Positions 50,971 to 59,506 of a stretch of 64,000 nt of DNA are shown piece by piece. A program made the position numbers and the translations under genes. Within the stretch, counting starts at the first letter, position 1; each line of letters begins with the position of its first letter. The DNA comes from an uncultured Pseudomonadales bacterium. Its GTDB lineage: Bacteria; Patescibacteriota; Microgenomatia; UBA1400; PJMF01. The notes below the pieces were generated by a model. The model ran no database searches and was not told where the DNA came from. It saw only the letters and a list, made by a program, of their open reading frames with translations. The DNA is taken from positions 4,302 to 68,301 of the forward strand of contig CAYWDM010000006.1 of assembly GCA_964457085.1 (NCBI GenBank), given 5' to 3'.

Positions 50971-51249
50971 TTAGACGGTTTTTCGCTTCTCAAGTTCTGC
51001 TAAAACCATATCCAGTGTAACACCGCGTGCTGCCAACATCACTAAAGTGTGAAACAACAAATCAGCAGTTTCAGAAACTAATCGTCGTTTGTTACTATTT
51101 TTAGCAGCAATCACCACTTCAACAGCTTCTTCACCAACTTTTTGAATAATTCGGTCGTCATTATCTCTGAAGAGCGAAGCAACATATGAATTATCTGGCA
51201 TGTTCTCTTTACGAGCAATGATTATTTTGTAGAGTGCTTGTAATGTCAT
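50971..51249 (-). CDS. hisE: phosphoribosyl-ATP pyrophosphatase
   Basis: 92 aa, [13 protein letters not shown]...[17 protein letters not shown]. Confidence 0.85.
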
Positions 51250-51575
51250 ATCTTCCGTTCAATTAATTTGGTATAAAAACAACTACGAGAGCCAGTGTGA
51301 CAAACTGCCACTCCCTGCAATTCAACTGTGACTAATACAGTATCGGCATCACAGTCTTGATACAACGAGAGAACTTTTAGCTGATTACCCGACTGTTCAC
51401 CCTTTAGCCAAAGTTTTTTTCGACTTCGACTCCAGAAATAAACAAAGCCAGTTTGCTGTGTTTTTTCGAGTGCCTGAGCGTTCATATATCCCAGCATCAA
51501 AACTTCACCAGTAGTTCCATCTTGAATAATGGCTGGCACCAATCCTGAATTTTTATTGAAATCAATTTTTTTCAT
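51246..51575 (-). CDS. hisI: phosphoribosyl-AMP cyclohydrolase
   Basis: GLVPAIIQD...[16 protein letters not shown]...CDADTVL...CHTG. Confidence 0.85.
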
Positions 51576-52332
51576 AGACGTTTCTATTTGGGATTTTTTT
51601 TAATTGCATATATTTTTTTAAATCAGAAATCGTCAACTCACCAAAGTGGAATAGTGAAGCAGCTAATGCACCGTCAGCGACTCCTTCTTCAAATACATCG
51701 GCAAAGTCTGTAATGCTTCCAGCACCTCCAGAAGCAATCACCGGGACAGTGACACTTTGAGAAATAATTCTAGTCAGCTCTAAATCAAATCCCTTCTTGG
51801 TGCCGTCAGCATCCATGCTAGTCAACAAAATCTCACCAGCTCCAAGTCCGACTCCTTCTTTTGCCCAGGATAGAGCGTTAAGCCCTGTTGCAGCAGTACC
51901 ACCATTAATCACTACCTCCCAACCAGTTTTATTTTTTTTAACATCGATCGCCAATACGATACATTGACTACCAAATACCCTTGCAGCTTCGGTAATGAGA
52001 CTGGGTTTTTTAACTGCTGCAGTATTGAGTGAAACCTTATCAGCACCAGCCAATAATACGGTTCTAATATCTTCAATTGAACTAATACCACCTCCGACTG
52101 TAAATGGAATAAAAATAGTTTCAGCAACTTTTTTAACCATCTCGATTATTGTTTTACGTCGATCATTAGTAGCGGTAATGTCTAGGAATACCAACTCGTC
52201 AGCACCTTGGTCATTGTAGAATTTTGCCAATTGCACCGGATCACCAGCATCCTGCAAATTCACAAAATTAACCCCTTTAACCACTCGGCCGTTAGCAATA
52301 TCAAGACAGGGAATAATTCGTTTAGTTAACAT
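51562..52332 (-). CDS. hisF: imidazole glycerol phosphate synthase cyclase subunit
   Basis: [15 protein letters not shown]...[10 protein letters not shown]. Confidence 0.9.
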
Positions 52333-53044
52333 TGTTGACCTCCTGAATTGAGATTTTGCCTTCTAATACTGCTTTGCCAATAATTACTCCTGCTACTTTG
52401 AGAACTGAGAGTGCAATGACATCTGCTTTTGAGGACACTCCACCAGCAACAATGAGTGGCACTGAAAGTAACGACTGTAACTTTTTAACCTCTTCAAAAT
52501 TGGGTTGAGTTAGTGTGCCGTCTCTACTCACATCAGTATAAATAAATGTTTTCACTCCCCATTTTTCTAGCTGTATAGCAGTTTCAAGTAAATCTTGATC
52601 ACTGTTTTCCAACCAACCACGTTTGGCTAATTTGCCATTTTTACTGTCGAGCGAAACAATAATCCTGTCACCGTATTTGTCTAGCATTTGTTTTATCAGT
52701 GATTCGTTCTCTAAAGCCACCGTGCCAATAATTACTTTTGTGTCTCCAATTTTTAAAAGCTTCTCGACACTAGCAAGAGACTGAATGCCGCCACCAACTT
52801 GAACAGGAATGGTAACCGCGGTAATGATTTTTTTTATGATGACTAGATTGATTGATCGACCAACTTTGGCACCATCAAGATCCACGATGTGTAGTGCTCT
52901 AGCTCCTGCAGTTTGCAAGCGTAGAGCCATTGCCACAGGATCTTGGCCATAGATTGTTTCCAAAGCATAATCACCTTGTTGTAAGCGGACACAATTGCCA
53001 GCTCTAATATCAATAGCGGGAATAACTAGCATAATAGCCTCCAA
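52322..53044 (-). CDS. hisA: ProFAR isomerase
   Basis: [15 protein letters not shown]...LHIVDLDGA. Confidence 0.85.
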
Positions 53045-53625
53045 AAGTTTTCTAATACCTGGAGACCTGCCTCACCACTTTTCTCTGGGTGAAACTGTAC
53101 TCCATAGATATTTTTTGACTCAATCACACTGCAAAAGTCTTGACCATAATTAGTTACGCCAGTAACGTTTTTGGTGTCAATCGGATTGCAGTAATATGAG
53201 TGTACAAAGTAAAAATACGAATTATTTGTAATACCCTGCAACAACTGCGAATTTAATGCATTGACTTGGTTCCAGCCGACTTGGGGCACCTTTAAATTAG
53301 TTTTCAATTTTTGAACCTCACCATTAATCAAATCGAGACAATTGACACCACCTTCTTCACTAAATGAAAAAAATAATTGCATCCCCAAACAAATTCCTAG
53401 TAATGGTTTACCACTAGCAACTTGCTCAGTTATCACAACATCAAGATTTCGCTGTCGCAGATTTTTCATACCTGCACCTGCGGCACCCACTCCTGGCAAA
53501 ATTAAACCTGTTGCCTGCTGAATATCGCCAGTTTGATTCGATATTTTGAAAGGAATGCTGAGTCGAGAAAGTGCATTTGCCACACTCGCCAAATTTCCCA
53601 ATCCATAATCAATAATTACTATCAT
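53026..53625 (-). CDS. hisH: imidazole glycerol phosphate synthase glutaminase subunit
   Basis: IVIIDYGLGNLASV, GICLGMQ catalytic Cys, HPEKS. Confidence 0.9.
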   Translation of the reverse strand: MIVIIDYGLGNLASVANALSRLSIPFKISNQTGDIQQATGLILPGVGAAGAGMKNLRQRNLDVVITEQVASGKPLLGICLGMQLFFSFSEEGGVNCLDLINGEVQKLKTNLKVPQVGWNQVNALNSQLLQGITNNSYFYFVHSYYCNPIDTKNVTGVTNYGQDFCSVIESKNIYGVQFHPEKSGEAGLQVLENFWRLLC

Positions 53626-54215
53626 AATGAACCCTTCGTCGATGGTATTTGTGTCAGTGCTCTCTGGTCATATTCACAAGCAGCTCGAATTGCTCGAGCC
53701 ATTGCTTTGAATATGCCTTCGATTTTGTGGTGATCATTGCGACCATTTTCAACCTTAATGAAAACATTGGCTTTGGCGTTTTGGGCAAAACCATCCCAAA
53801 AGTCGTAAACCAGCTCAGTGCTAAGATCTCCAACCTTGTCACGGTTAAAGTCACAATCGAGAGCGAAGGCATACCGTCCAGAAAAATCTATGGCTACCGT
53901 CACTAGTACCTCATCCATTGGCAATACAAAGAATCCATAACGATTAATGCCACGCTTCTCTCCAAGTGACTGCGCGAATGCCTGGCCTAAAACAATACCG
54001 ATATCTTCTACTGTGTGGTGCTCATCAATAAAAATATCTCCCTGAGCTACCAGTGCTAGATCAAATAAGCCGTGTTTGGCAAATAATTCCAGCATGTGTG
54101 ATAAAAAACCTACTGGCACAGTGATTTGTCGCTGTCCGGTTCCATCAACACTAAGTGATAACTCAATTTGAGTTTCAGTGGTAATGCGGGTAATTACGGC
54201 GGAACGTTTTTTCAT
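53622..54215 (-). CDS. hisB: imidazoleglycerol-phosphate dehydratase (monofunctional)
   Basis: RITTETQIELSL...DEHHTVEDIGI...AMARAIR. Confidence 0.9.
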   Translation of the reverse strand: MKKRSAVITRITTETQIELSLSVDGTGQRQITVPVGFLSHMLELFAKHGLFDLALVAQGDIFIDEHHTVEDIGIVLGQAFAQSLGEKRGINRYGFFVLPMDEVLVTVAIDFSGRYAFALDCDFNRDKVGDLSTELVYDFWDGFAQNAKANVFIKVENGRNDHHKIEGIFKAMARAIRAACEYDQRALTQIPSTKGSL

Positions 54216-56053
54216 AACAGGAGTCTTTCGATTTCGTTGGTGCCTGCAACTTCAAACTCAGCTGCACTACCAGTGCCGACAAAGATACATGGCATCTGAG
54301 CTGACTTCGCAGCCAATACATCATTAATACTGTCGCCAACATAGATTGGCCGATTACTATCAAGCAGTGCAGCAGCTTGTAATAATGGATCTGGAAATGG
54401 TTTTTCTCGCAAAGTGTCCTCTTTACCAACTACAAATTTTTCTTGAATTAGTGCCGGTGATATCTTTAGATTTCTCAGTGCAAACAATGCCTCAAACTTT
54501 GGTCTCCCCGTAGCAACTCCAACCTTGTATTTATTAGCAATCTTTTTCAGGACTGCTAAATCTATCAACAGTATTTCATTAGCAATCAGTCCCGATTGCT
54601 CACTAATTGGAGCTAGTCGTTGATATATCTCAAAAAATAACTCAGAGCCTAAATAAAAACTCTGAAAAATATCTTTTATTTTTTGGTACTCTGAACTATT
54701 TTTTATTTGATCACTAAGAGCTGTGATTTTTTTCTTAAATTGAGTACGATAGATTTTTTTTGAGAGTAATTGTATGAGTGCAAACGACAGATCCCAATCA
54801 TTATTGAATCCTGGAATCAACTTCATGGACTCAACATCTTCGGCGGCTATAACTGTGTGCAAACCATAATTATTTTGTAGCACGTACTCAACCGTTAATT
54901 TGATTGCCTGGCGATATGACTGCGAGACATCTATCAGTACACCATCCATATCAAAAATAACGCTATCTAACTTTGGTTTAGAATATTCCCTGAGTGCTGC
55001 CAACAACTTGTCATTCTGGCGACGAGTGCCGATACTGATGCGAATTGCACTGTAAGCTGTGTAGTAGCGAACCACAATTTTTCGCTTCTCCAGAATTTCC
55101 TGTAACTGCGAGAGTCGATCCATCACAATAAACAGCGAGTTTGCTGCTGATGGATACACCGTAAAGCAGGACAATTTTTCAAGTTCATTATTTAAACGAG
55201 TTCGCTCTGCAACAATTGTCGCCAGCATTTTTTCTCTCCAAGTGGTATCAGAGAGAGCAGCGATTCCTGCCTCATTTGCAGCCAAGTTAACATTGTATGG
55301 TGGTTTAATCTTAAACAGCTGCTGCACAAAAAACTCATTCATCACCCCATATCCCAATCGCAAACCTGCCAATCCCGCCCATTTACTCAGAGTTCGTAGC
55401 ACGATTAAGTTGGGATACTGCTCCAGTAGTGAGATTACACTCTTACCAGAAAACTCAAAATAGGCTTCGTCCACAATGACCAGCTTACCGGTTTTTAATA
55501 ACGTAATGATTTCTTCCTCGCCACTGACAGTCCCGGTAGGATTATTTGGCGAACAAATTACGATTGCCTTGGTACGAGCTGTGACTGCTTTTCTAATCCC
55601 TATCAGATCCAATGAAAAATCAGCATTTCTGGCAACCGCAACTACCACACCACGATTCAACTGTACCGACACACAGTACATGCCAAATGTTGGCGGACAG
55701 TTGATTACTTCGTCGCCATTATTCAGGATCAATCGGAATAGTAAATCCAACAGTTCGTCTGACCCTGAACCAACCATGATATTTTTAACAGCGGCACCAG
55801 TATATTCAGCCAGTGCAAAGCGTAACTGCATATATTCAGGATCAGGATAAAAATTATATTTTGGTTGTCCTCGTAGTGCTTTCTGCACTAATGGTGAGTA
55901 GCCAAATTGATTTTCACCCGCGTCAAGTTTAATAACATCTTCAGAATTTTGACCAAACTTCTCTGCCAAATCCCACAGCGATGCTACCGGCAGATAGGCC
56001 GACATCGCTGCGATATCCTTTCGGATCATATTTTGTATAGTATTTTTTTTCAT
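54212..56053 (-). CDS. hisC: histidinol-phosphate aminotransferase fused to a C-terminal HAD-family phosphatase
   Basis: N-terminal aminotransferase class I/II with PLP-Lys region LRTLSKWAGLAGLRLGY. C-terminal HAD motifs FDMDGVLID (I), VATGRP (II) and VGDSINDVLAAK (IV). Start set at MKKNTIQ. Confidence 0.8.
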   Translation of the reverse strand: MKKNTIQNMIRKDIAAMSAYLPVASLWDLAEKFGQNSEDVIKLDAGENQFGYSPLVQKALRGQPKYNFYPDPEYMQLRFALAEYTGAAVKNIMVGSGSDELLDLLFRLILNNGDEVINCPPTFGMYCVSVQLNRGVVVAVARNADFSLDLIGIRKAVTARTKAIVICSPNNPTGTVSGEEEIITLLKTGKLVIVDEAYFEFSGKSVISLLEQYPNLIVLRTLSKWAGLAGLRLGYGVMNEFFVQQLFKIKPPYNVNLAANEAGIAALSDTTWREKMLATIVAERTRLNNELEKLSCFTVYPSAANSLFIVMDRLSQLQEILEKRKIVVRYYTAYSAIRISIGTRRQNDKLLAALREYSKPKLDSVIFDMDGVLIDVSQSYRQAIKLTVEYVLQNNYGLHTVIAAEDVESMKLIPGFNNDWDLSFALIQLLSKKIYRTQFKKKITALSDQIKNSSEYQKIKDIFQSFYLGSELFFEIYQRLAPISEQSGLIANEILLIDLAVLKKIANKYKVGVATGRPKFEALFALRNLKISPALIQEKFVVGKEDTLREKPFPDPLLQAAALLDSNRPIYVGDSINDVLAAKSAQMPCIFVGTGSAAEFEVAGTNEIERLLL

Positions 56054-56060
56054 ATTTTTT

Positions 56061-57353
56061 TTAATTTCTAAATCGAATCTCGCAGGCAACTTTGTGAGCG
56101 GGTAGCTCCTCTATCTCAGCTAAGGTTTCGATGGTTTTTCGTAAATTATTTAGTCCTGTTTTGCTACAGCGCTGTACCTGCATCCATTTGCCATAACAAT
56201 CAACTCCTAGAGGTGGGTACATCTTAGCCATGCCCCCAGTTGGTAGTACGTGGTTGGCACCTGTTGCATAATCCCCTGCTGATTTGGCTGTCCAATTTCC
56301 TAAGAAAATTGAACCTGCATTTACAATCTCACTGACCACTGCTTCAGGATCTTTAGTCATGATCTCTAAGTGCTCAGGAGCGTATTCATTGGTAAAAGCA
56401 ATTGCTTCTTCCAGTGAATCAACTACAGCTACTAAACCAAACTTAACTAATGATTCAGTTAGACGCTCGGCAGTTGCCAACAGTGGCACTTGTTTCTCGA
56501 TTTCAGCAATTGTTTGCTCAGCAATCTCCAGCGAAGTAGTGACTAAAACACATGCTGAATCATTACCGTGTTCACCATCTGCCAAGAGATCGGCAGCAAT
56601 GAACGCTGGGTTAGCAGTCTCATCAGCGATTACAAATACTTCAGAAGGACCAGCTGGCATATCGATACTAATTGATTCAAGTGCCAGCATCTTTGCAGCA
56701 GTTACCGCAGCACCACCAGCACCAAAGATCTTAGAGACTTTTGGTACAGATTCTGTGCCATAGGTCATAGCTGCGATTGCCAGTGGTCCACCCAGTTTAA
56801 AAATCTCGGTCAATCCAATCATGTCAGCAGCCACCAATGTTGGTGCTGGAATCTGACCAGTGCCTCGTGCCGGTGAACAGAGCACAATCTGTGTACAACC
56901 AGCAATCTGTGCTGGAATCGCACTCATCAATACTGATGAAGGATAAATAGCTTTGCCACCAGGAATATATAATCCAACTTTCTCGATTGCTCGCCACTCA
57001 CGCCAAACTGCCACTCCAACTTCTGGTCGCACTACAGTATCCAGTTTGGTGGGTAACTGTGCGGAGTGCACGGCAGTAATATTGCGAATCATTTGACGAA
57101 TTGACTCAATAAAGTCTTGATTAACTTCTCGGTAAGCCTGATTAATCTCCTCAGAAGTAACTTTAATTGAAGTGAAATTCTGACCTGCAAAACGCTTGGC
57201 AGCATCAGCATATAGTGCTCTGTCGCCATCCTGTTTCACCGACTCCATGATTTGTTTCACTTGAGGCATGATTTGAGAATCATCGCCTGCACTGCGAGCC
57301 ATAATTCTTTGATAATCACTGGCCGATAAATCTTTAAGTTTAATAACTTGCAT
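56061..57353 (-). CDS. hisD: histidinol dehydrogenase
   Basis: Conserved HisD segments (CSPARGTGQ, GEHGNDS, DYATGANHVLPTGG). Confidence 0.9.
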   Translation of the reverse strand: MQVIKLKDLSASDYQRIMARSAGDDSQIMPQVKQIMESVKQDGDRALYADAAKRFAGQNFTSIKVTSEEINQAYREVNQDFIESIRQMIRNITAVHSAQLPTKLDTVVRPEVGVAVWREWRAIEKVGLYIPGGKAIYPSSVLMSAIPAQIAGCTQIVLCSPARGTGQIPAPTLVAADMIGLTEIFKLGGPLAIAAMTYGTESVPKVSKIFGAGGAAVTAAKMLALESISIDMPAGPSEVFVIADETANPAFIAADLLADGEHGNDSACVLVTTSLEIAEQTIAEIEKQVPLLATAERLTESLVKFGLVAVVDSLEEAIAFTNEYAPEHLEIMTKDPEAVVSEIVNAGSIFLGNWTAKSAGDYATGANHVLPTGGMAKMYPPLGVDCYGKWMQVQRCSKTGLNNLRKTIETLAEIEELPAHKVACEIRFRN

Positions 57354-57362
57354 ATAATTCCT

Positions 57363-58244
57363 TTACAAAATAATTTTTTCGATTGGTAAGACAATAATTC
57401 CAGTGGCACCAGCAGCTTTGAGTTTTTCAATGGTTTCCCAAAACACATCCTCTTTAATTACAGTTTGGATCGAGACCCAACCGTCCTGAGCTAGTGGTGA
57501 AACTGTCGGCGATTTAAGTCCGGGAGTAATTTTCTGCAAATTTGACAAAATATCTTCTGGAGCATTCATCATCACGTATTTATAGGTTTTGGCTGAAAGT
57601 ACGGCTTTGAAACGAACCAACAATCTTTTTATTAATCGCAGTTTGGCTGCATCCACCATGCTGGTGCCATTGGCAATACAAACCGCTTCACAGTCATAGA
57701 TTTTTGCCAGTTGTCGCAAATCATTAAGTGCCATAGTGCTGCCAGTAGCAGTGAGGTCAGCGATGGCGTCAGCAACTCCCAACATCGGTGCTATCTCCAC
57801 CGAACCGCTAATCTTGATTGTCTCCACCGACATGCCACTTTTCTTAAAAAAATTCTTGGTTGAGTTCGGGTAGGAAGTGGCAATCGTTTTTCCGTCTAAA
57901 TCTACTAATTCAACGACAGGCGATTCTTTGGGGACCGCCAATGTCAGAGCACAAAATCCATACCGCAGATTTAAAAGTTTCTTGACGTTTTTTGGTCGTT
58001 CTTCGTACAGTAAATTTTGACCCACAATACCCATATCCACACTACCAGAAGCTACATAATCGGGAATATCGTCGTCACGCATGTAGATAATTTCTAAAGG
58101 AAAATTGCGACAAGTAGAAAACAACTTAGATTTATAACTGGCAAATTCCAGTCCAGCACTTCGCAAAAAACTAATGGTTTCGTCAGTCAGACGACCACTT
58201 TTTTGAATAGCTAATTTTAGATTTTTTTGATTCATGTTTTGCAT
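57363..58244 (-). CDS. hisG: ATP phosphoribosyltransferase, long form with regulatory domain
   Basis: LKLAIQKSGRL...DIPDYVASGSVDMGIVG. About 290 aa, so it includes the C-terminal regulatory domain. Start at ATG 58244 or 58235; the ORF track uses TTG at 58256. Confidence 0.85.
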   Translation of the reverse strand: MQNMNQKNLKLAIQKSGRLTDETISFLRSAGLEFASYKSKLFSTCRNFPLEIIYMRDDDIPDYVASGSVDMGIVGQNLLYEERPKNVKKLLNLRYGFCALTLAVPKESPVVELVDLDGKTIATSYPNSTKNFFKKSGMSVETIKISGSVEIAPMLGVADAIADLTATGSTMALNDLRQLAKIYDCEAVCIANGTSMVDAAKLRLIKRLLVRFKAVLSAKTYKYVMMNAPEDILSNLQKITPGLKSPTVSPLAQDGWVSIQTVIKEDVFWETIEKLKAAGATGIIVLPIEKIIL

Positions 58245-58259
58245 AATTACTTTCAATTT

Positions 58260-58332
58260 GGGTGGCTGAGGGGAGTTGCACCCCCGGCCTTCTCCTCCAC
58301 AAGGAGATGCTCTACGGTTGAGCTACAGCCAC
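58260..58332 (-). tRNA. tRNA-His (anticodon GUG)-like gene with G-1 and C73, non-canonical D- and T-loops
   Basis: Manual fold of minus-strand GGTGGCTGTAGCTCAACCGTAGAGCATCTCCTTGTGGAGGAGAAGGCCGGGGGTGCAACTCCCCTCAGCCACC. Eight-bp acceptor including the His-specific G-1:C73 pair, anticodon loop UUGUGGA. D-loop AACCGUA lacks GG; T-loop is UGCAACU (G at position 55). Confidence 0.6.
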
Positions 58333-58354
58333 CATCTTTTAAACGAGTGGTTAA

Positions 58355-58422
58355 TAAAAAACCTCCCGTTCATTTCTCACCAACACCAGCAAAACCAGTG
58401 GTTGGTAAAAAAGGAACGAGAG
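58355..58422 (-). terminator. second leader hairpin: 10-bp stem (CCUCUCGUUC/GAACGGGAGG) with an internal nested hairpin, followed by U6
   Basis: Seen in the minus-strand transcript between the T-box-like terminator and the tRNA-His-like gene. Confidence 0.4.
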
Positions 58423-58426
58423 GCAA

Positions 58427-58610
58427 TAAAAAAGGACCTCCCGCGGTCCCATCCTTCATTCTCTGAGGTATTTCTCCTCAAAGCTCTCAGGCCGGCTCCG
58501 CACGTGCGACATCGGCTGTTGTATTTAACGGTTCAACTTCCGTAAGACATTTTGGCCTTCAGCTCATGGATCGTGACTCCACTCAAACGCTTTATTGGTA
58601 TTAACTTGTA
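58427..58610 (-). promoter_or_regulatory. candidate T-box riboswitch leader (His-specific) with terminator
   Basis: Minus-strand RNA has AAGGA-UGGGACCGCGG (58440-58450), matching the T-box core UGGNACCGCGG, with N=G complementary to the tRNA-His discriminator C73. Terminator GGACC-GCGGGA-GGUCC plus U6 at 58427-58448. CAC codon within GUCGCACGUGCG at 58503-58505. Confidence 0.45.
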
Positions 58611-58616
58611 TGCGAG

Positions 58617-58645
58617 TATTTTAATTGAGGAAGTAACAAATGTCA
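58617..58645 (-). promoter_or_regulatory. sigma-70 promoter of the his leader (TTGACA-17-TAAAAT)
   Basis: -35 at 58640-58645 and -10 at 58617-58622 on the minus strand, with 17-nt spacing. Confidence 0.6.
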
Positions 58646-58666
58646 ACATGTTAACGCGTTAACATG
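58645..58666. promoter_or_regulatory. perfect 22-bp palindrome ACATGTTAACGCGTTAACATGT abutting the -35 (candidate operator)
   Basis: Perfect inverted repeat between the yerC-like gene stop and the his promoter. Confidence 0.5.
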
Positions 58667-58701
58667 TATTTATAGAGGAATATTGATGAATTAATGTAAT
58701 A

Positions 58702-59004
58702 TTATGTGCGCTTCGAATCACCGTACAGTCTCTGCAAAATAATCGAATAGCCATGCCATGATTCTTTATACAGCCACTGAGCCACCCGAGTTACAGTGGT
58801 GGTGCTTGTACCGACTTTCTCTGCAATCTCTAAGTAAGAAAGTTTAGTTGACCACAATAGTTTAGCGATGTGAAAGCGACGAGAAAACTCTTCAATTTCT
58901 GCTGGAGTCAACAAATCACGAAGAAAGCCAGTGACTTCTTTCGGGCCACACAGTGTGGAGATGGCGGCGATGAGTTCTTTGTCAGATTTAGTGGGATAAG
59001 ACAT
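58702..59004 (-). CDS. yerC: YerC/YecD (TrpR-related) family DNA-binding protein
   Basis: 100 aa with LSYLEIAEKVGTSTTTVTRV HTH and overall TrpR_YerC pattern. Confidence 0.6.
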   Translation of the reverse strand: MSYPTKSDKELIAAISTLCGPKEVTGFLRDLLTPAEIEEFSRRFHIAKLLWSTKLSYLEIAEKVGTSTTTVTRVAQWLYKESWHGYSIILQRLYGDSKRT

Positions 59005-59020
59005 AGGTGTAGTTTAGCAC

Positions 59021-59506
59021 TCAGATAAAATCTGAATTAATTTTTTTTATGAAAGTAAAAAATGTTTTTAAAATTGCTATTTCTGGATCACTGGGATTTT
59101 TATTCGCTGTGACTATGGTGCTCACCTCAGTTTCACTAATCCAACGATAGGAATCAATTTCACTTTCCTGAATTTTAATATCATCTAATGGTGTGGTCGG
59201 AGTAGCTAAGTAAATATTCTCGATCACCGTTTTGCCATTATAAACATATGTAAAAGAGTCAAACAAATTACCAACCAAAATTTCAAGATTAAGTTCTTCT
59301 CTAATCTCTCTGACCAAACCAGCTTGATCAGTTTCACCTGATTCAATGTGTCCACCGGGCAATTCATAGACTCCGGGAAGAAATGAGGACTGCAATGATC
59401 GTTTGGTCATCAAACACTGATGTGTGTTAGCAACTTTTCGGTAGATCAAGGCACAAGCAGTAGGGATCATTTCCATATATATCCAGTTACTTACTAAACG
59501 CCACAT
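59021..59506 (-). CDS. NUDIX hydrolase
   Basis: Nudix box GGHIESGETDQAGLVREIREELNLEI. Confidence 0.8.
   Translation of the reverse strand: MWRLVSNWIYMEMIPTACALIYRKVANTHQCLMTKRSLQSSFLPGVYELPGGHIESGETDQAGLVREIREELNLEILVGNLFDSFTYVYNGKTVIENIYLATPTTPLDDIKIQESEIDSYRWISETEVSTIVTANKNPSDPEIAILKTFFTFIKKINSDFI

What the first reader, a model, noticed from the sequence alone, without database searches (positions are those of the whole stretch)
58260..58332. tRNA-His(GUG)-like gene embedded in the his operon leader, 15 nt from hisG, with non-canonical D/T loops
The sequence folds into a cloverleaf with the His identity elements: G-1 paired to C73, and anticodon GUG in UUGUGGA. It is on the same strand as the nine-gene his operon, immediately 5' of it and downstream of the T-box-like element. 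The tRNA and the operon that makes its amino acid would therefore be co-transcribed and co-regulated. The other three tRNAs in this window have canonical G18G19 and a TTCGA T-loop. This one has the D-loop AACCGUA (no GG) and the T-loop UGCAACU (G at position 55). It could be a fully functional but odd tRNA-His, a low-activity paralog, or a tRNA-like regulatory mimic that reports His charging to the upstream T-box.
Basis: seen in the sequence. Interest (0 to 1): 0.8.

Follow-up and report, generated by a model that had tools for sequence, protein, structure and literature searches.

The report
tRNA-His gene inside his-operon leader
A real histidine tRNA gene lies between a histidine-sensing RNA switch and the first histidine-biosynthesis gene of an uncultured ultra-small (CPR-type) bacterium, so the cell probably makes this tRNA and the enzymes for its amino acid from one regulated transcript; its odd loops are typical of tRNA-His in this group, not a defect.

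Summary
A 73-nt tRNA-His(GUG) with encoded G-1 and C73 lies on the minus strand at 58333..58261 (ARAGORN; Rfam tRNA 62.8 bits, the best of the four tRNAs in the window). It sits 22 nt after the terminator of a His-specific T-box and 16 nt before the hisG ATG, at the head of a complete nine-gene his operon.

G19:C56, U54 and A58 are kept. Only positions 18 (C) and 55 (G) depart from the norm.

Relatives changed the reading. In CPR/Microgenomates-type MAGs and metagenome contigs, at least 16 distinct his leaders besides this one have a tRNA-His in the same slot. It follows either a T-box or a His leader-peptide attenuator. A metagenome scan found 75 tRNA-His genes with non-G18; all complete copies carry A18/G19/G55/C56. 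About 60 of them are stand-alone, several closing an ordinary Leu-Pro-Gly-Arg-His tRNA cluster. Stems covary, and positions 16 and 59 covary without exception.

So this is most likely a working, lineage-typical tRNA-His co-transcribed with hisG, not a mimic. Whether it is the genome's only tRNA-His could not be tested. Published counts give one tRNA-His gene in most complete Patescibacteria genomes.

The parts
58646..58667 (.). Perfect 22-bp palindrome ACATGTTAACGCGTTAACATGT abutting the -35 hexamer. Candidate operator, possibly for the adjacent TrpR-like protein (59004..58702). Context only; not proven to be part of the system.
   Evidence: Read. Rfam gives a spurious two-strand hit at 58648-58665 that reflects the palindrome. 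Similar ATGTTAAC/GTTAACAT repeats occur in promoters of related loci. The neighbouring gene carries PF01371 Trp_repressor.
58618..58646 (-). Sigma-70-type promoter TTGACA-17-TAAAAT for the leader, the tRNA and the his operon.
   Evidence: 11 of 12 matches. It is the only promoter-like site on this strand in 57900..59100.
58409..58596 (-). His-specific T-box leader (aptamer through antiterminator).
   Evidence: Rfam RF00230, 44.3 bits, E 3.8e-8, below the gathering score of 93 because stem I is nearly absent. It is conserved in 14 aligned leaders.
58563..58584 (-). Ultrashort stem I: hairpin GUGGA-GUCACGA-UCCAU, with the specifier codon CAC (58575..58573) in the terminal loop.
   Evidence: The stem covaries across 14 leaders (GC/AU, UA/CG, GU/CG/GC/UA) while the loop GUCACGA is invariant.
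58437..58456 (-). T-box core AAGGAUGGGACCGCGGGAGG. The bulge UGGG is complementary to the tRNA 3' end C73-C-C-A.
   Evidence: invariant in 14 leaders. The only such motif in the window.
58428..58450 (-). Small hairpin GGGACC/GGUCC followed by U6. It is terminator-like or pause-like and is built from the acceptor-binding bulge itself. It lies upstream of the antiterminator 3' strand.
   Evidence: Terminator scan. Folding gives -10.8 kcal/mol. It covaries in L007 and L009 and is absent in L003.
58356..58423 (-). Main intrinsic terminator. A long hairpin whose 5' strand CCUCUCGUUCC (58423..58413) is also the antiterminator 3' strand. It ends in U6.
   Evidence: Folding gives -36.4 kcal/mol, z -7.8. 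The strands CCUCUCGUUCC and GAACGGGAGG-U(n) are conserved in relatives.
58334..58355 (-). 22-nt spacer between the terminator U-tract and G-1 of the tRNA, that is, the tRNA 5' leader. No promoter-like site.
   Evidence: In relatives this spacer is 0-20 nt in most cases.
58261..58333 (-). tRNA-His(GUG): G-1 at 58333, acceptor stem 58332..58326 with 58268..58262, anticodon 58300..58298, discriminator C73 at 58261. D-loop A14 A15 C16 C18 G19 U20 A21. T-loop U54 G55 C56 A57 A58 C59 U60.
   Evidence: Covariation in 40 distinct relatives is shown.
58245..58260 (-). tRNA 3' trailer, which is also the hisG 5' UTR (CAAAUUGAAAGUAAUU). It carries a weak SD-like GAAAG. CCA is not encoded.
57363..58244 (-). 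hisG, long form, 293 aa.
   Evidence: Pfam HisG plus HisG_C. The exact protein is found on two Logan contigs. The start was chosen by N-terminal alignment with relatives.
50971..57353 (-). hisD, hisC-HAD phosphatase fusion, hisB, hisH, hisA, hisF, hisI and hisE.
   Evidence: Pfam. ORF coordinates.

Best explanation
This is a genuine tRNA-His gene of a CPR/Microgenomates-type bacterium, sitting in the leader of the his operon.

Proposed mechanism:
1. Transcription starts at the promoter at 58646..58618 and runs into a His-specific T-box.
2. When uncharged tRNA-His pairs with the specifier CAC and the UGGG bulge, the antiterminator forms and RNA polymerase reads through the terminator at 58423..58356.
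3. The read-through transcript carries the tRNA and then hisG-hisE.
4. RNase P cuts 5' of G-1, a 3' endonuclease cuts after C73, and CCA is added. This releases a tRNA-His and leaves hisG with a 16-nt 5' UTR.

The tRNA and the pathway that makes its amino acid are therefore induced together. The T-box controls the synthesis of its own ligand.

The non-canonical elbow (C18, G55) is one variant of a remodelled elbow that is typical of tRNA-His in this clade. That elbow keeps the outer G19:C56 pair, so it does not indicate decay or mimicry.

What is shown: the gene, its identity elements, its position, conservation of the arrangement, and the clade-wide elbow type with covariation. What is inferred: co-transcription (from geometry), the processing steps, aminoacylation, the feedback logic, and the idea that this is the only tRNA-His gene (my estimate about 0.6).
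For: The tRNA is real.
- It is called by ARAGORN and by Rfam at 62.8 bits, and the cloverleaf is the minimum-energy fold.
- G-1:C73, GUG, U33, U8, A14, A21, G19, C56, U54 and A58 are all present.

The T-box matches it.
- The T-box has specifier CAC and bulge UGGG, matching this tRNA, and a strong terminator.
- No promoter-like site lies between the terminator and the tRNA.

The arrangement is conserved.
- Among 14 hisG loci sampled without reference to tRNA (the window plus 13 from the protein-based genome scan), 6 carry the tRNA in the leader.
- The metagenome scan added 11 more: 8 behind a T-box and 3 behind a His leader peptide.
- On a rough HisG neighbour-joining tree the trait is scattered, with tRNA-less leaders nested among tRNA-bearing ones. 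This suggests an old arrangement with repeated losses.

The elbow type is lineage-typical.
- All complete copies among the 75 metagenome hits with non-G18 have A18/G19/G55/C56.
- About 60 hits have no hisG downstream, and several close a Leu(taa)-Pro(tgg)-Gly(tcc)-Arg(tct)-His cluster.
- The leader copies in L051 and L070 are identical to the stand-alone copies in L064 and L089.

Selection acts on the fold.
- 93.9% of cells form standard pairs, 11 pairs show changes on both sides, and 0 of 500 shuffles reach these values.
- 16:59 is A:U in 22, C:C in 17 and U:A in 1 sequence, with no exception.

Copy number.
- Published counts give one tRNA-His gene in 56 of the 61 complete Patescibacteria genomes in the part of the table I read, including 11 of 12 Microgenomatia (PMC13011429 Table S2).
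Against: - There are no expression, processing or charging data.
- Whole genomes could not be scanned, so a second tRNA-His is not excluded.
- Placing a sole tRNA-His behind a T-box terminator, and perhaps a repressor operator, looks risky. It would require leaky termination.
- Leaders without the tRNA exist (L005, L006, L007, L009, L008, L013-L015), so those genomes keep tRNA-His elsewhere and the tRNA is dispensable for operon control.
- Some leader copies look damaged. L010 has G33 and an A4.C69 mismatch, and L003 has a U.U in the anticodon stem. This fits redundancy in some genomes.
- The exact C18/G55 combination was seen only in this window and its two Logan copies.
- The 5' half of the tRNA in the metagenome set was fixed by my search pattern, so invariance there says nothing.
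Confidence: 0.78

Rival explanations
1. It is a redundant paralog. The organism has another tRNA-His gene that does most of the decoding. The leader copy persists mainly as an RNase P/RNase Z processing module that cuts the T-box leader away from the his mRNA and sets its 5' end, or simply by hitch-hiking.
For: - The leader tRNA has been lost repeatedly within the HisG tree. T-box leaders lacking it abut hisG directly (L005, L007).
- L010 and L003 carry blemishes: G33, A4.C69 and a U.U mismatch.
- In L039 and L070 the ATG is only 3 nt after C73, so processing would define the mRNA 5' end.
- 5 of the 61 complete Patescibacteria genomes I read have two tRNA-His genes.
- Processing of T-box leaders is known to stabilise read-through mRNA in Bacillus subtilis thrS (my own knowledge, not checked here).
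Against: - Most leader copies have perfect stems, and some are identical to stand-alone copies of other genomes. That is not the pattern of relaxed selection.
- The base rate of a single tRNA-His gene is about 90%.
- A module needed only for processing would not have to keep the GUG anticodon, U33, G37 and G-1:C73, yet all are kept.
Confidence: 0.14
2. It is a tRNA-like regulatory mimic or decoy. It interacts with the upstream T-box, or titrates HisRS, to report histidine charging, and it is not used in translation.
For: - It lies next to a T-box whose specifier and bulge match it.
- The T-box lacks the elbow-docking part of stem I, and the tRNA has an altered elbow.
Against: - It lies downstream of the terminator, so it is not yet made when its own transcript's T-box decides.
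- The same slot is filled behind leader-peptide attenuators that have no T-box (L010, L011, L033, L043, L048).
- T-box leaders function without it in relatives.
- The same elbow type is found on stand-alone tRNA-His genes in ordinary tRNA clusters.
- A canonical-elbow tRNA-His (L012) sits behind the same ultrashort-stem-I T-box.
Confidence: 0.03
3. It is a dead relic: a tRNA pseudogene that happens to lie in the leader and yields no stable or functional RNA.
For: G18 and U55, two nearly universal positions, are replaced. No expression data exist.
Against: - It has the highest Rfam tRNA score in the window, and all stems are perfect.
- The slot is conserved across HisG proteins only 53-76% identical to this one.
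- Compensatory changes maintain the stems in relatives.
Confidence: 0.03

Closest known systems
His-specific T-box leaders of the his operon in Lactobacillales (for example Lactococcus lactis), as summarised in PMC9413887
   Same: A T-box that reads uncharged tRNA-His controls read-through into histidine-biosynthesis genes.
   Different: I know of no tRNA gene in those leaders (my own knowledge; PMC9413887 does not mention one). Those are standard T-boxes, whereas this one has stem I reduced to a specifier hairpin and scores below Rfam's gathering threshold. Here hisG is the long form.
Actinobacterial ileS T-boxes with ultrashort stem I (Sherwood, Grundy & Henkin 2015, as reviewed in PMC7583486)
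   Same: Stem I is truncated so that the specifier sits in a short hairpin, and the elbow-binding interdigitated T-loop motif is missing.
   Different: Those are Ile-specific and act on translation. The review states that transcriptional T-boxes generally need the long stem I. This one is His-specific and is followed by a strong intrinsic terminator, with an extra small hairpin plus U-tract before it.
tRNA-mRNA co-transcripts such as the E. coli thrU-tyrU-glyT-thrT-tufB operon (my own knowledge)
   Same: tRNA genes lie upstream of a protein-coding gene on one transcript and are cut out by tRNA-processing nucleases.
   Different: There the tRNAs are unrelated to the product and no amino-acid-specific attenuator precedes them. 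Here the tRNA is the cognate of both the pathway's product and the riboswitch's ligand.
Enterobacterial his attenuation and hisR, the tRNA-His gene in the argX-hisR-leuT-proM cluster (my own knowledge)
   Same: The level of charged tRNA-His sets his-operon expression. The stand-alone CPR copies sit in a similar Leu-Pro-Gly-Arg-His cluster. Several relatives use a His leader peptide.
   Different: In enterobacteria the tRNA gene is unlinked to the his operon and is not under its attenuator.
tRNAs with non-canonical elbows: tRNA-Pyl, many animal mitochondrial tRNAs, and the staphylococcal cell-wall tRNA-Gly species (my own knowledge; elbow rules from PMC4810234)
   Same: They depart from the G18G19 / T54-Psi55-C56 consensus.
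   Different: Here the outer G19:C56 pair is retained. The changes are internal (18, 55, and in relatives 54:58 and 60). The tRNA appears to be the ordinary elongator tRNA-His of a bacterial clade whose other tRNAs are canonical.

Membership tests
tRNA (Rfam RF00005) | Cloverleaf secondary structure scoring above the family threshold. | tested here: met
   62.8 bits against a gathering score of 29. ARAGORN calls it. The cloverleaf is the minimum-energy fold. Covariation in relatives: 11 pairs with changes on both sides, 0 of 500 shuffles as high.
tRNA (Rfam RF00005) | Conserved tertiary-core nucleotides: U8, A14, G18, G19, A21, U33, U54, U55, C56 and A58. | tested here: inconclusive
   U8, A14, G19, A21, U33, U54, C56 and A58 are present. 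G18 is replaced by C and U55 by G. Position numbering rests on alignment with L012.
Bacterial tRNA-His identity set | Extra G-1 paired with discriminator C73. | tested here: met
   G at 58333 and C at 58261. G-1:C73 holds in 39 of 40 relatives and is G:U in L047. G-1 was part of the search pattern, so its invariance in the metagenome set carries no weight.
Bacterial tRNA-His identity set | Anticodon GUG. | tested here: met
   58300..58298. Invariant in relatives, and not part of the search pattern.
Bacterial tRNA-His identity set | Aminoacylation by HisRS. | not testable with these tools
   Needs an in vitro charging assay or tRNA-seq with charge detection.
T-box riboswitch (Rfam RF00230) | Score at or above the family gathering threshold. 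| tested here: not met
   44.3 bits against 93. E is 3.8e-8 in a 1.4-kb search. About 69 of 75 stem I positions are missing.
T-box riboswitch (Rfam RF00230) | Conserved T-box sequence forming an antiterminator whose bulge UGGN pairs with the tRNA NCCA end. | tested here: met
   AAGGAUGGGACCGCGGGAGG is invariant in 14 leaders. N is G, complementary to C73.
T-box riboswitch (Rfam RF00230) | Specifier codon matching the anticodon of the regulated amino acid's tRNA. | tested here: met
   CAC sits in the invariant loop GUCACGA, on a stem that covaries.
T-box riboswitch (Rfam RF00230) | Long stem I with a distal elbow-docking platform (interdigitated T-loops). | tested here: not met
   Stem I is a 5-bp hairpin. 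This resembles the actinobacterial ultrashort class (PMC7583486).
T-box riboswitch (Rfam RF00230) | Mutually exclusive terminator and antiterminator. | tested here: met
   CCUCUCGUUCC (58423..58413) pairs either with GCGGGAGG of the T-box core or with GAACGGGAGG of the terminator (-36.4 kcal/mol). Actual switching was not tested.
tRNA-like mimic or pseudo-tRNA | Loss of features needed for decoding (anticodon loop, identity elements, intact stems) while shape is retained. | tested here: not met
   All stems are perfect, the anticodon loop is a 7-nt UUGUGGA, and G-1:C73 is present.

The most novel reading that the evidence does not exclude
The leader copy is the organism's only tRNA-His gene. 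A T-box (or, in sister lineages, a His leader peptide) would then directly autoregulate the supply of the very tRNA it senses, together with histidine synthesis. In the same clade, tRNA-His has rebuilt the inside of its elbow (non-G18, G55, often A54:U58, with 16:59 covarying). This would coincide with a transcriptional T-box that has dropped the elbow-docking stem I and gained a second, bulge-sequestering hairpin with a U-tract as an extra checkpoint.
Probability: 0.4. Interest if true: 0.8.

Novelty: new variant of a known kind. Interest (0 to 1): 0.62.

Why it matters
Three things would matter to specialists.

1. **An essential tRNA gene behind a switch that senses it.** The gene sits behind an amino-acid-responsive attenuator that senses the same tRNA. 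I found no such regulatory circuit described in eight full-text searches. With a leader peptide the loop is homeostatic: low His-tRNA gives more tRNA. With a T-box the loop is positive: uncharged tRNA gives more tRNA. The same slot in sister genomes holds both designs, which offers a natural comparison.

2. **A bacterial elongator tRNA that breaks near-universal rules.** A whole clade appears to decode His with a tRNA lacking G18 and U55, and often U54:A58, while its other tRNAs stay canonical. This bears on which elbow contacts the ribosome, RNase P, TruB and TrmA really need. It also affects annotation: ARAGORN missed 9 complete copies.

3. **An exception among T-boxes.** A transcriptional T-box with an ultrashort stem I contradicts the current generalisation that only translational T-boxes can do without the elbow-docking platform.

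If a second ordinary tRNA-His turns up, the finding shrinks to an interesting but modest co-transcription and processing arrangement.

Tried and rejected
- **Exact-protein look-up, shorter HisG start.** The 290-aa version (ATG 58235) found nothing. The 293-aa version (ATG 58244) and HisD found only two short Logan metagenome contigs, so no genome could be retrieved.
- **Rfam 'evalue' search of 13 loci.** Replaced by a gathering-threshold search of 9 loci.
- **Second T-box in the window.** The core motif gave only the his leader plus one chance-level hit.
- **Promoter between terminator and tRNA.** None was reported by the scan. By eye, the longer spacers of L016, L037 and L051 contain only weak candidates, which I did not pursue.
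Rejected as a general rule: 37 of 40 sequences are A18:G55. Only the window (C:G) and L003 (A:U) could pair.
- **Pseudo-tRNA or mimic readings.** Rejected for the reasons given under the rival explanations.
- **his operon inserted next to a tRNA cluster.** Considered and rejected. Leader-type loci have no other tRNAs nearby, and the attenuator lies upstream of the tRNA, not downstream.
- **Literature.** Eight searches found nothing on a tRNA gene in a his or T-box leader, nor on CPR tRNA-His elbows. The library lacks most subscription-journal papers, so this is weak evidence of novelty.

Full report
**1. What is at the coordinates**

The feature is on the minus strand. ARAGORN reports tRNA-His(gtg) at 58260..58332. 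Rfam's tRNA model matches 58332..58261 at 62.8 bits (gathering score 29, E 3.1e-11), the best of the four tRNAs in the window. The 73-nt RNA from G-1 (58333) to C73 (58261) folds into the cloverleaf as its minimum-energy structure (-34.1 kcal/mol, z -2.85).

Read from the sequence, the tRNA is:
G-1 | GUGGCUG | UA | GCUC | AACCGUA | GAGC | A | UCUCC | UUGUGGA | GGAGA | AGGCC | GGGGG | UGCAACU | CCCCU | CAGCCAC | C73.

All stems are perfectly paired. The His identity elements G-1:C73 and GUG are present. CCA is not encoded (C73 is followed by CAAA).

**2. Surroundings**

In transcript order the elements are:
- a 22-bp perfect palindrome (58667..58646);
- a strong sigma-70-type promoter, TTGACA-17-TAAAAT (58646..58618);
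- a T-box (Rfam RF00230, 58596..58409, 44.3 bits, E 3.8e-8, below the gathering score of 93);
- a long terminator hairpin ending in U6 (58423..58356; -36.4 kcal/mol, z -7.8);
- a 22-nt spacer;
- the tRNA;
- a 16-nt trailer;
- hisG (ATG 58244).

The rest of the operon follows: hisD, a hisC-HAD phosphatase fusion, hisB, hisH, hisA, hisF, hisI and hisE. All were confirmed with Pfam.

The T-box scores low because stem I is reduced to a 5-bp hairpin, GUGGA-GUCACGA-UCCAU. This hairpin presents the His codon CAC in its terminal loop. The T-box core AAGGAUGGGACCGCGGGAGG carries the bulge UGGG, complementary to C73-CCA. No promoter-like site lies between the terminator and the tRNA. Co-transcription of leader, tRNA and hisG is inferred from this geometry, not shown.

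**3. Relatives**

The exact HisG and HisD proteins occur only on two short Logan metagenome contigs that carry the identical leader.

A protein-based scan of one genome per species found 13 HisG relatives at 60-76% identity. Six record titles name CPR groups (Paceibacterota, Woesebacteria, Gottesmanbacteria, Roizmanbacteria). Six say 'uncultured Gammaproteobacteria' (TPA bins) and one only 'bacterium'. I did not check the taxonomy independently. Many metagenome hits come from 0.1-um groundwater filter fractions, which fits ultra-small bacteria (contig names).

The leaders of these 13 loci fall into these classes:

| Leader type | Loci |
|---|---|
| T-box plus tRNA-His | L003, L004, L012 |
| T-box, no tRNA | L005, L006, L007, L009 |
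| His leader-peptide attenuator plus tRNA-His | L010, L011 (peptide MSQLAHHHHTT) |
| His leader peptide, no tRNA | L008, L013, L014, L015 |

Counting the window, 6 of 14 loci sampled without reference to tRNA have a tRNA-His in the leader.

**4. The odd elbow is a clade trait**

I scanned JGI metagenomes for the 5' half of this tRNA with a 7-nt D-loop and any base but G at position 18. The scan gave 75 loci and 60 distinct sequences.
- Every hit has A18 and G19. All complete copies have G55 and C56.
- The T-loop is mostly A54-G55-C56-R57-U58-Y59-A60. GGCGGCA, CGCAACA and AGCRACA variants also occur.
- Eleven hits lie 3-50 nt upstream of hisG. Eight follow a T-box and three follow a His leader peptide.
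- The other roughly 60 hits have no his gene nearby.
- Several of these close a Leu(taa)-Pro(tgg)-Gly(tcc)-Arg(tct)-His cluster. In L057 the other tRNAs score 60-73 bits in Rfam (one long-arm tRNA-Leu 53.2) and the tRNA-His scores 53.7.
- The leader copies in L051 and L070 are identical in sequence to the stand-alone copies in L064 and L089.

This elbow type is therefore the ordinary tRNA-His of many related genomes.

I aligned 40 distinct sequences: the window, L003, L012 and 37 metagenome sequences. On this alignment:
- The cloverleaf forms standard pairs in 93.9% of cells. Eleven pairs show changes on both sides, and 0 of 500 shuffles reach the observed values.
- All five anticodon-stem pairs, D-stem pair 12:24 (alignment columns) and T-stem pairs 50:64 and 52:62 show compensatory changes.
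- G19:C56 holds in 40 of 40 sequences, but G19 was fixed by the search pattern in 37 of them.
- 16:59 covaries without exception: A:U in 22, C:C in 17, U:A in 1. Both states occur within groups that share the same anticodon stem, so more than one event is likely.
- 18:55 is A:G in 37 sequences, C:G in the window, A:U in L003 and G:U in the canonical L012.

Caveat: the acceptor 5' strand and the D-arm were fixed by my search pattern. Their invariance carries no information.

The review PMC4810234 describes the elbow as follows. [quoted passage not shown] G18 intercalates and makes a single hydrogen bond to Psi55. The window tRNA keeps that outer surface, and also U54 and A58. Only the interior positions 18 and 55 are changed.

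**5. Interpretation**

The evidence favours a working tRNA-His.
- The stems and identity elements are intact.
- The slot is conserved across HisG proteins only 53-76% identical to this one, and behind two mechanistically unrelated attenuators.
- The same elbow class occurs on stand-alone genes.

On a rough neighbour-joining HisG tree, tRNA-less leaders (L005, L006) are nested among tRNA-bearing ones, and T-box and leader-peptide types are interleaved. This suggests an old arrangement with repeated loss and attenuator replacement.

The 'mimic' idea fails for three reasons.
- The tRNA lies after the terminator.
- It is dispensable in some T-box leaders.
- It also occurs where no T-box exists.

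Whether this is the genome's only tRNA-His could not be tested. Table S2 of PMC13011429 gives tRNAscan-SE counts for complete Patescibacteria genomes. In the part I read, 56 of 61 genomes have one tRNA-His gene, including 11 of 12 Microgenomatia. That gives a high prior for a single copy.

Three observations pull the other way:
- the leader tRNA has been lost repeatedly;
- L010 (G33, A4.C69) and L003 (U.U in the anticodon stem) carry blemishes;
- placing a sole tRNA behind a terminator looks risky.

I put the sole-copy reading at about 0.6.

**6. Mechanism**

The following steps are inferred.
- Uncharged tRNA-His binds the specifier CAC and the UGGG bulge.
- The antiterminator (core with CCUCUCGU, 58423..58416) then forms instead of the terminator.
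- Read-through yields a leader-tRNA-his precursor.
- RNase P, a 3' endonuclease and the CCA-adding enzyme release the tRNA.
- hisG keeps a 16-nt 5' UTR with a weak SD-like GAAAG.

In L039 and L070 the ATG is 3 nt after C73. Processing there would leave an almost leaderless hisG mRNA.

With a leader-peptide attenuator the loop is homeostatic for charged tRNA-His. With a T-box the loop is positive for uncharged tRNA, so it needs basal read-through.

**7. Comparison with known systems**

His T-boxes in front of his operons are known in Lactobacillales (PMC9413887). Ultrashort stem I is known for translational ileS T-boxes of Actinobacteria. The review PMC7583486 states that transcriptional T-boxes generally need the long stem I.

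tRNA-mRNA co-transcripts (the tufB operon) and the role of hisR in his attenuation are textbook knowledge, which I cite from memory.

I found no description of a tRNA gene inside a his or T-box leader, nor of this CPR tRNA-His elbow, in eight full-text searches. The library is incomplete.

**8. Verdict**

Each component is of a known kind. The combination and the clade-wide elbow appear to be new. I rate interest at 0.62. It would be higher if whole-genome scans show this to be the only tRNA-His.

Noticed in passing
window 58563-58596 and 58428-58450 (minus strand); L003-L012, L016, L037, L039, L047, L051, L061: The T-box is followed by a strong intrinsic terminator, yet its stem I is only a 5-bp specifier hairpin. 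That architecture has been described for translational actinobacterial ileS T-boxes. It also has a conserved small hairpin, GGGACC/GGUCC plus U6, that sequesters the acceptor-binding bulge and lies before the antiterminator 3' strand. This could be a pause site or a first termination checkpoint. The hairpin covaries in L007 and L009 and is absent in L003.
   Followed up: partly
window 58646-58667 and 58702-59004: A perfect 22-bp palindrome, ACATGTTAACGCGTTAACATGT, abuts the -35 of the his promoter. Next to it lies a TrpR-family (PF01371, YerC/YecD-like) gene. Similar ATGTTAAC/GTTAACAT repeats and a TrpR-like gene accompany the his promoter in L003, L008, L010, L013-L015 and L043. This suggests a protein repressor acting as a second layer of his control.
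   Followed up: partly
L008, L010, L011, L013, L014, L015, L033, L043, L048 (150-400 nt upstream of hisG): Orthologous his operons in sister lineages use short His-rich leader peptides plus terminators instead of a T-box. Examples: MSQLAHHHHTT, MIGLVSQLHHHSQTS, ...EVSHHYSAKVG. The two attenuator classes have replaced each other at the same locus within one clade.
   Followed up: partly
L009 1-268: This T-box leader lacks the long second terminator. Its antiterminator 3' strand, CUCUCGUUCC, is complementary to the hisG Shine-Dalgarno AGGAGAG about 60 nt downstream. It may be a translational version of the same T-box.
   Followed up: no
L039 and L070, junction of tRNA and hisG: The hisG ATG starts 3 nt after the tRNA discriminator. 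In L070 the tRNA also starts directly after the terminator U-tract. tRNA processing would leave an essentially leaderless hisG mRNA.
   Followed up: no
L016-L090 (metagenome hits); L004, L073: ARAGORN failed to complete copies of the A18/G55 tRNA-His, although Rfam scores the three I checked (L004, L016, L073) at 49-51 bits. Routine annotation may report tRNA-His as missing in some CPR genomes.
   Followed up: partly
L010 2906-2979: The leader tRNA-His of this MAG has G33 instead of U33 and an A4.C69 mismatch, with an otherwise canonical elbow. It may be a decaying copy or an assembly error.
   Followed up: no
window 54212-56089 (minus strand): hisC (aminotransferase) is fused to a HAD-family hydrolase, presumably the histidinol-phosphate phosphatase. 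The start codon is uncertain: 597 aa as called on the Logan contig, 625 aa for the longest ORF.
   Followed up: no
window 50971-58244; L003-L015: A complete nine-gene histidine pathway occurs in genomes whose closest named relatives are CPR/Microgenomates MAGs, a group usually described as poor in amino-acid biosynthesis. Six of the 13 related records are titled 'uncultured Gammaproteobacteria' and one only 'bacterium', which conflicts with the CPR titles of the other six.
   Followed up: no
L006, L016, L051 (T-box leaders): Insertions of 80-120 nt lie inside the antiterminator loop or between terminator and tRNA. Some carry their own hairpins. Their nature was not examined.
   Followed up: no
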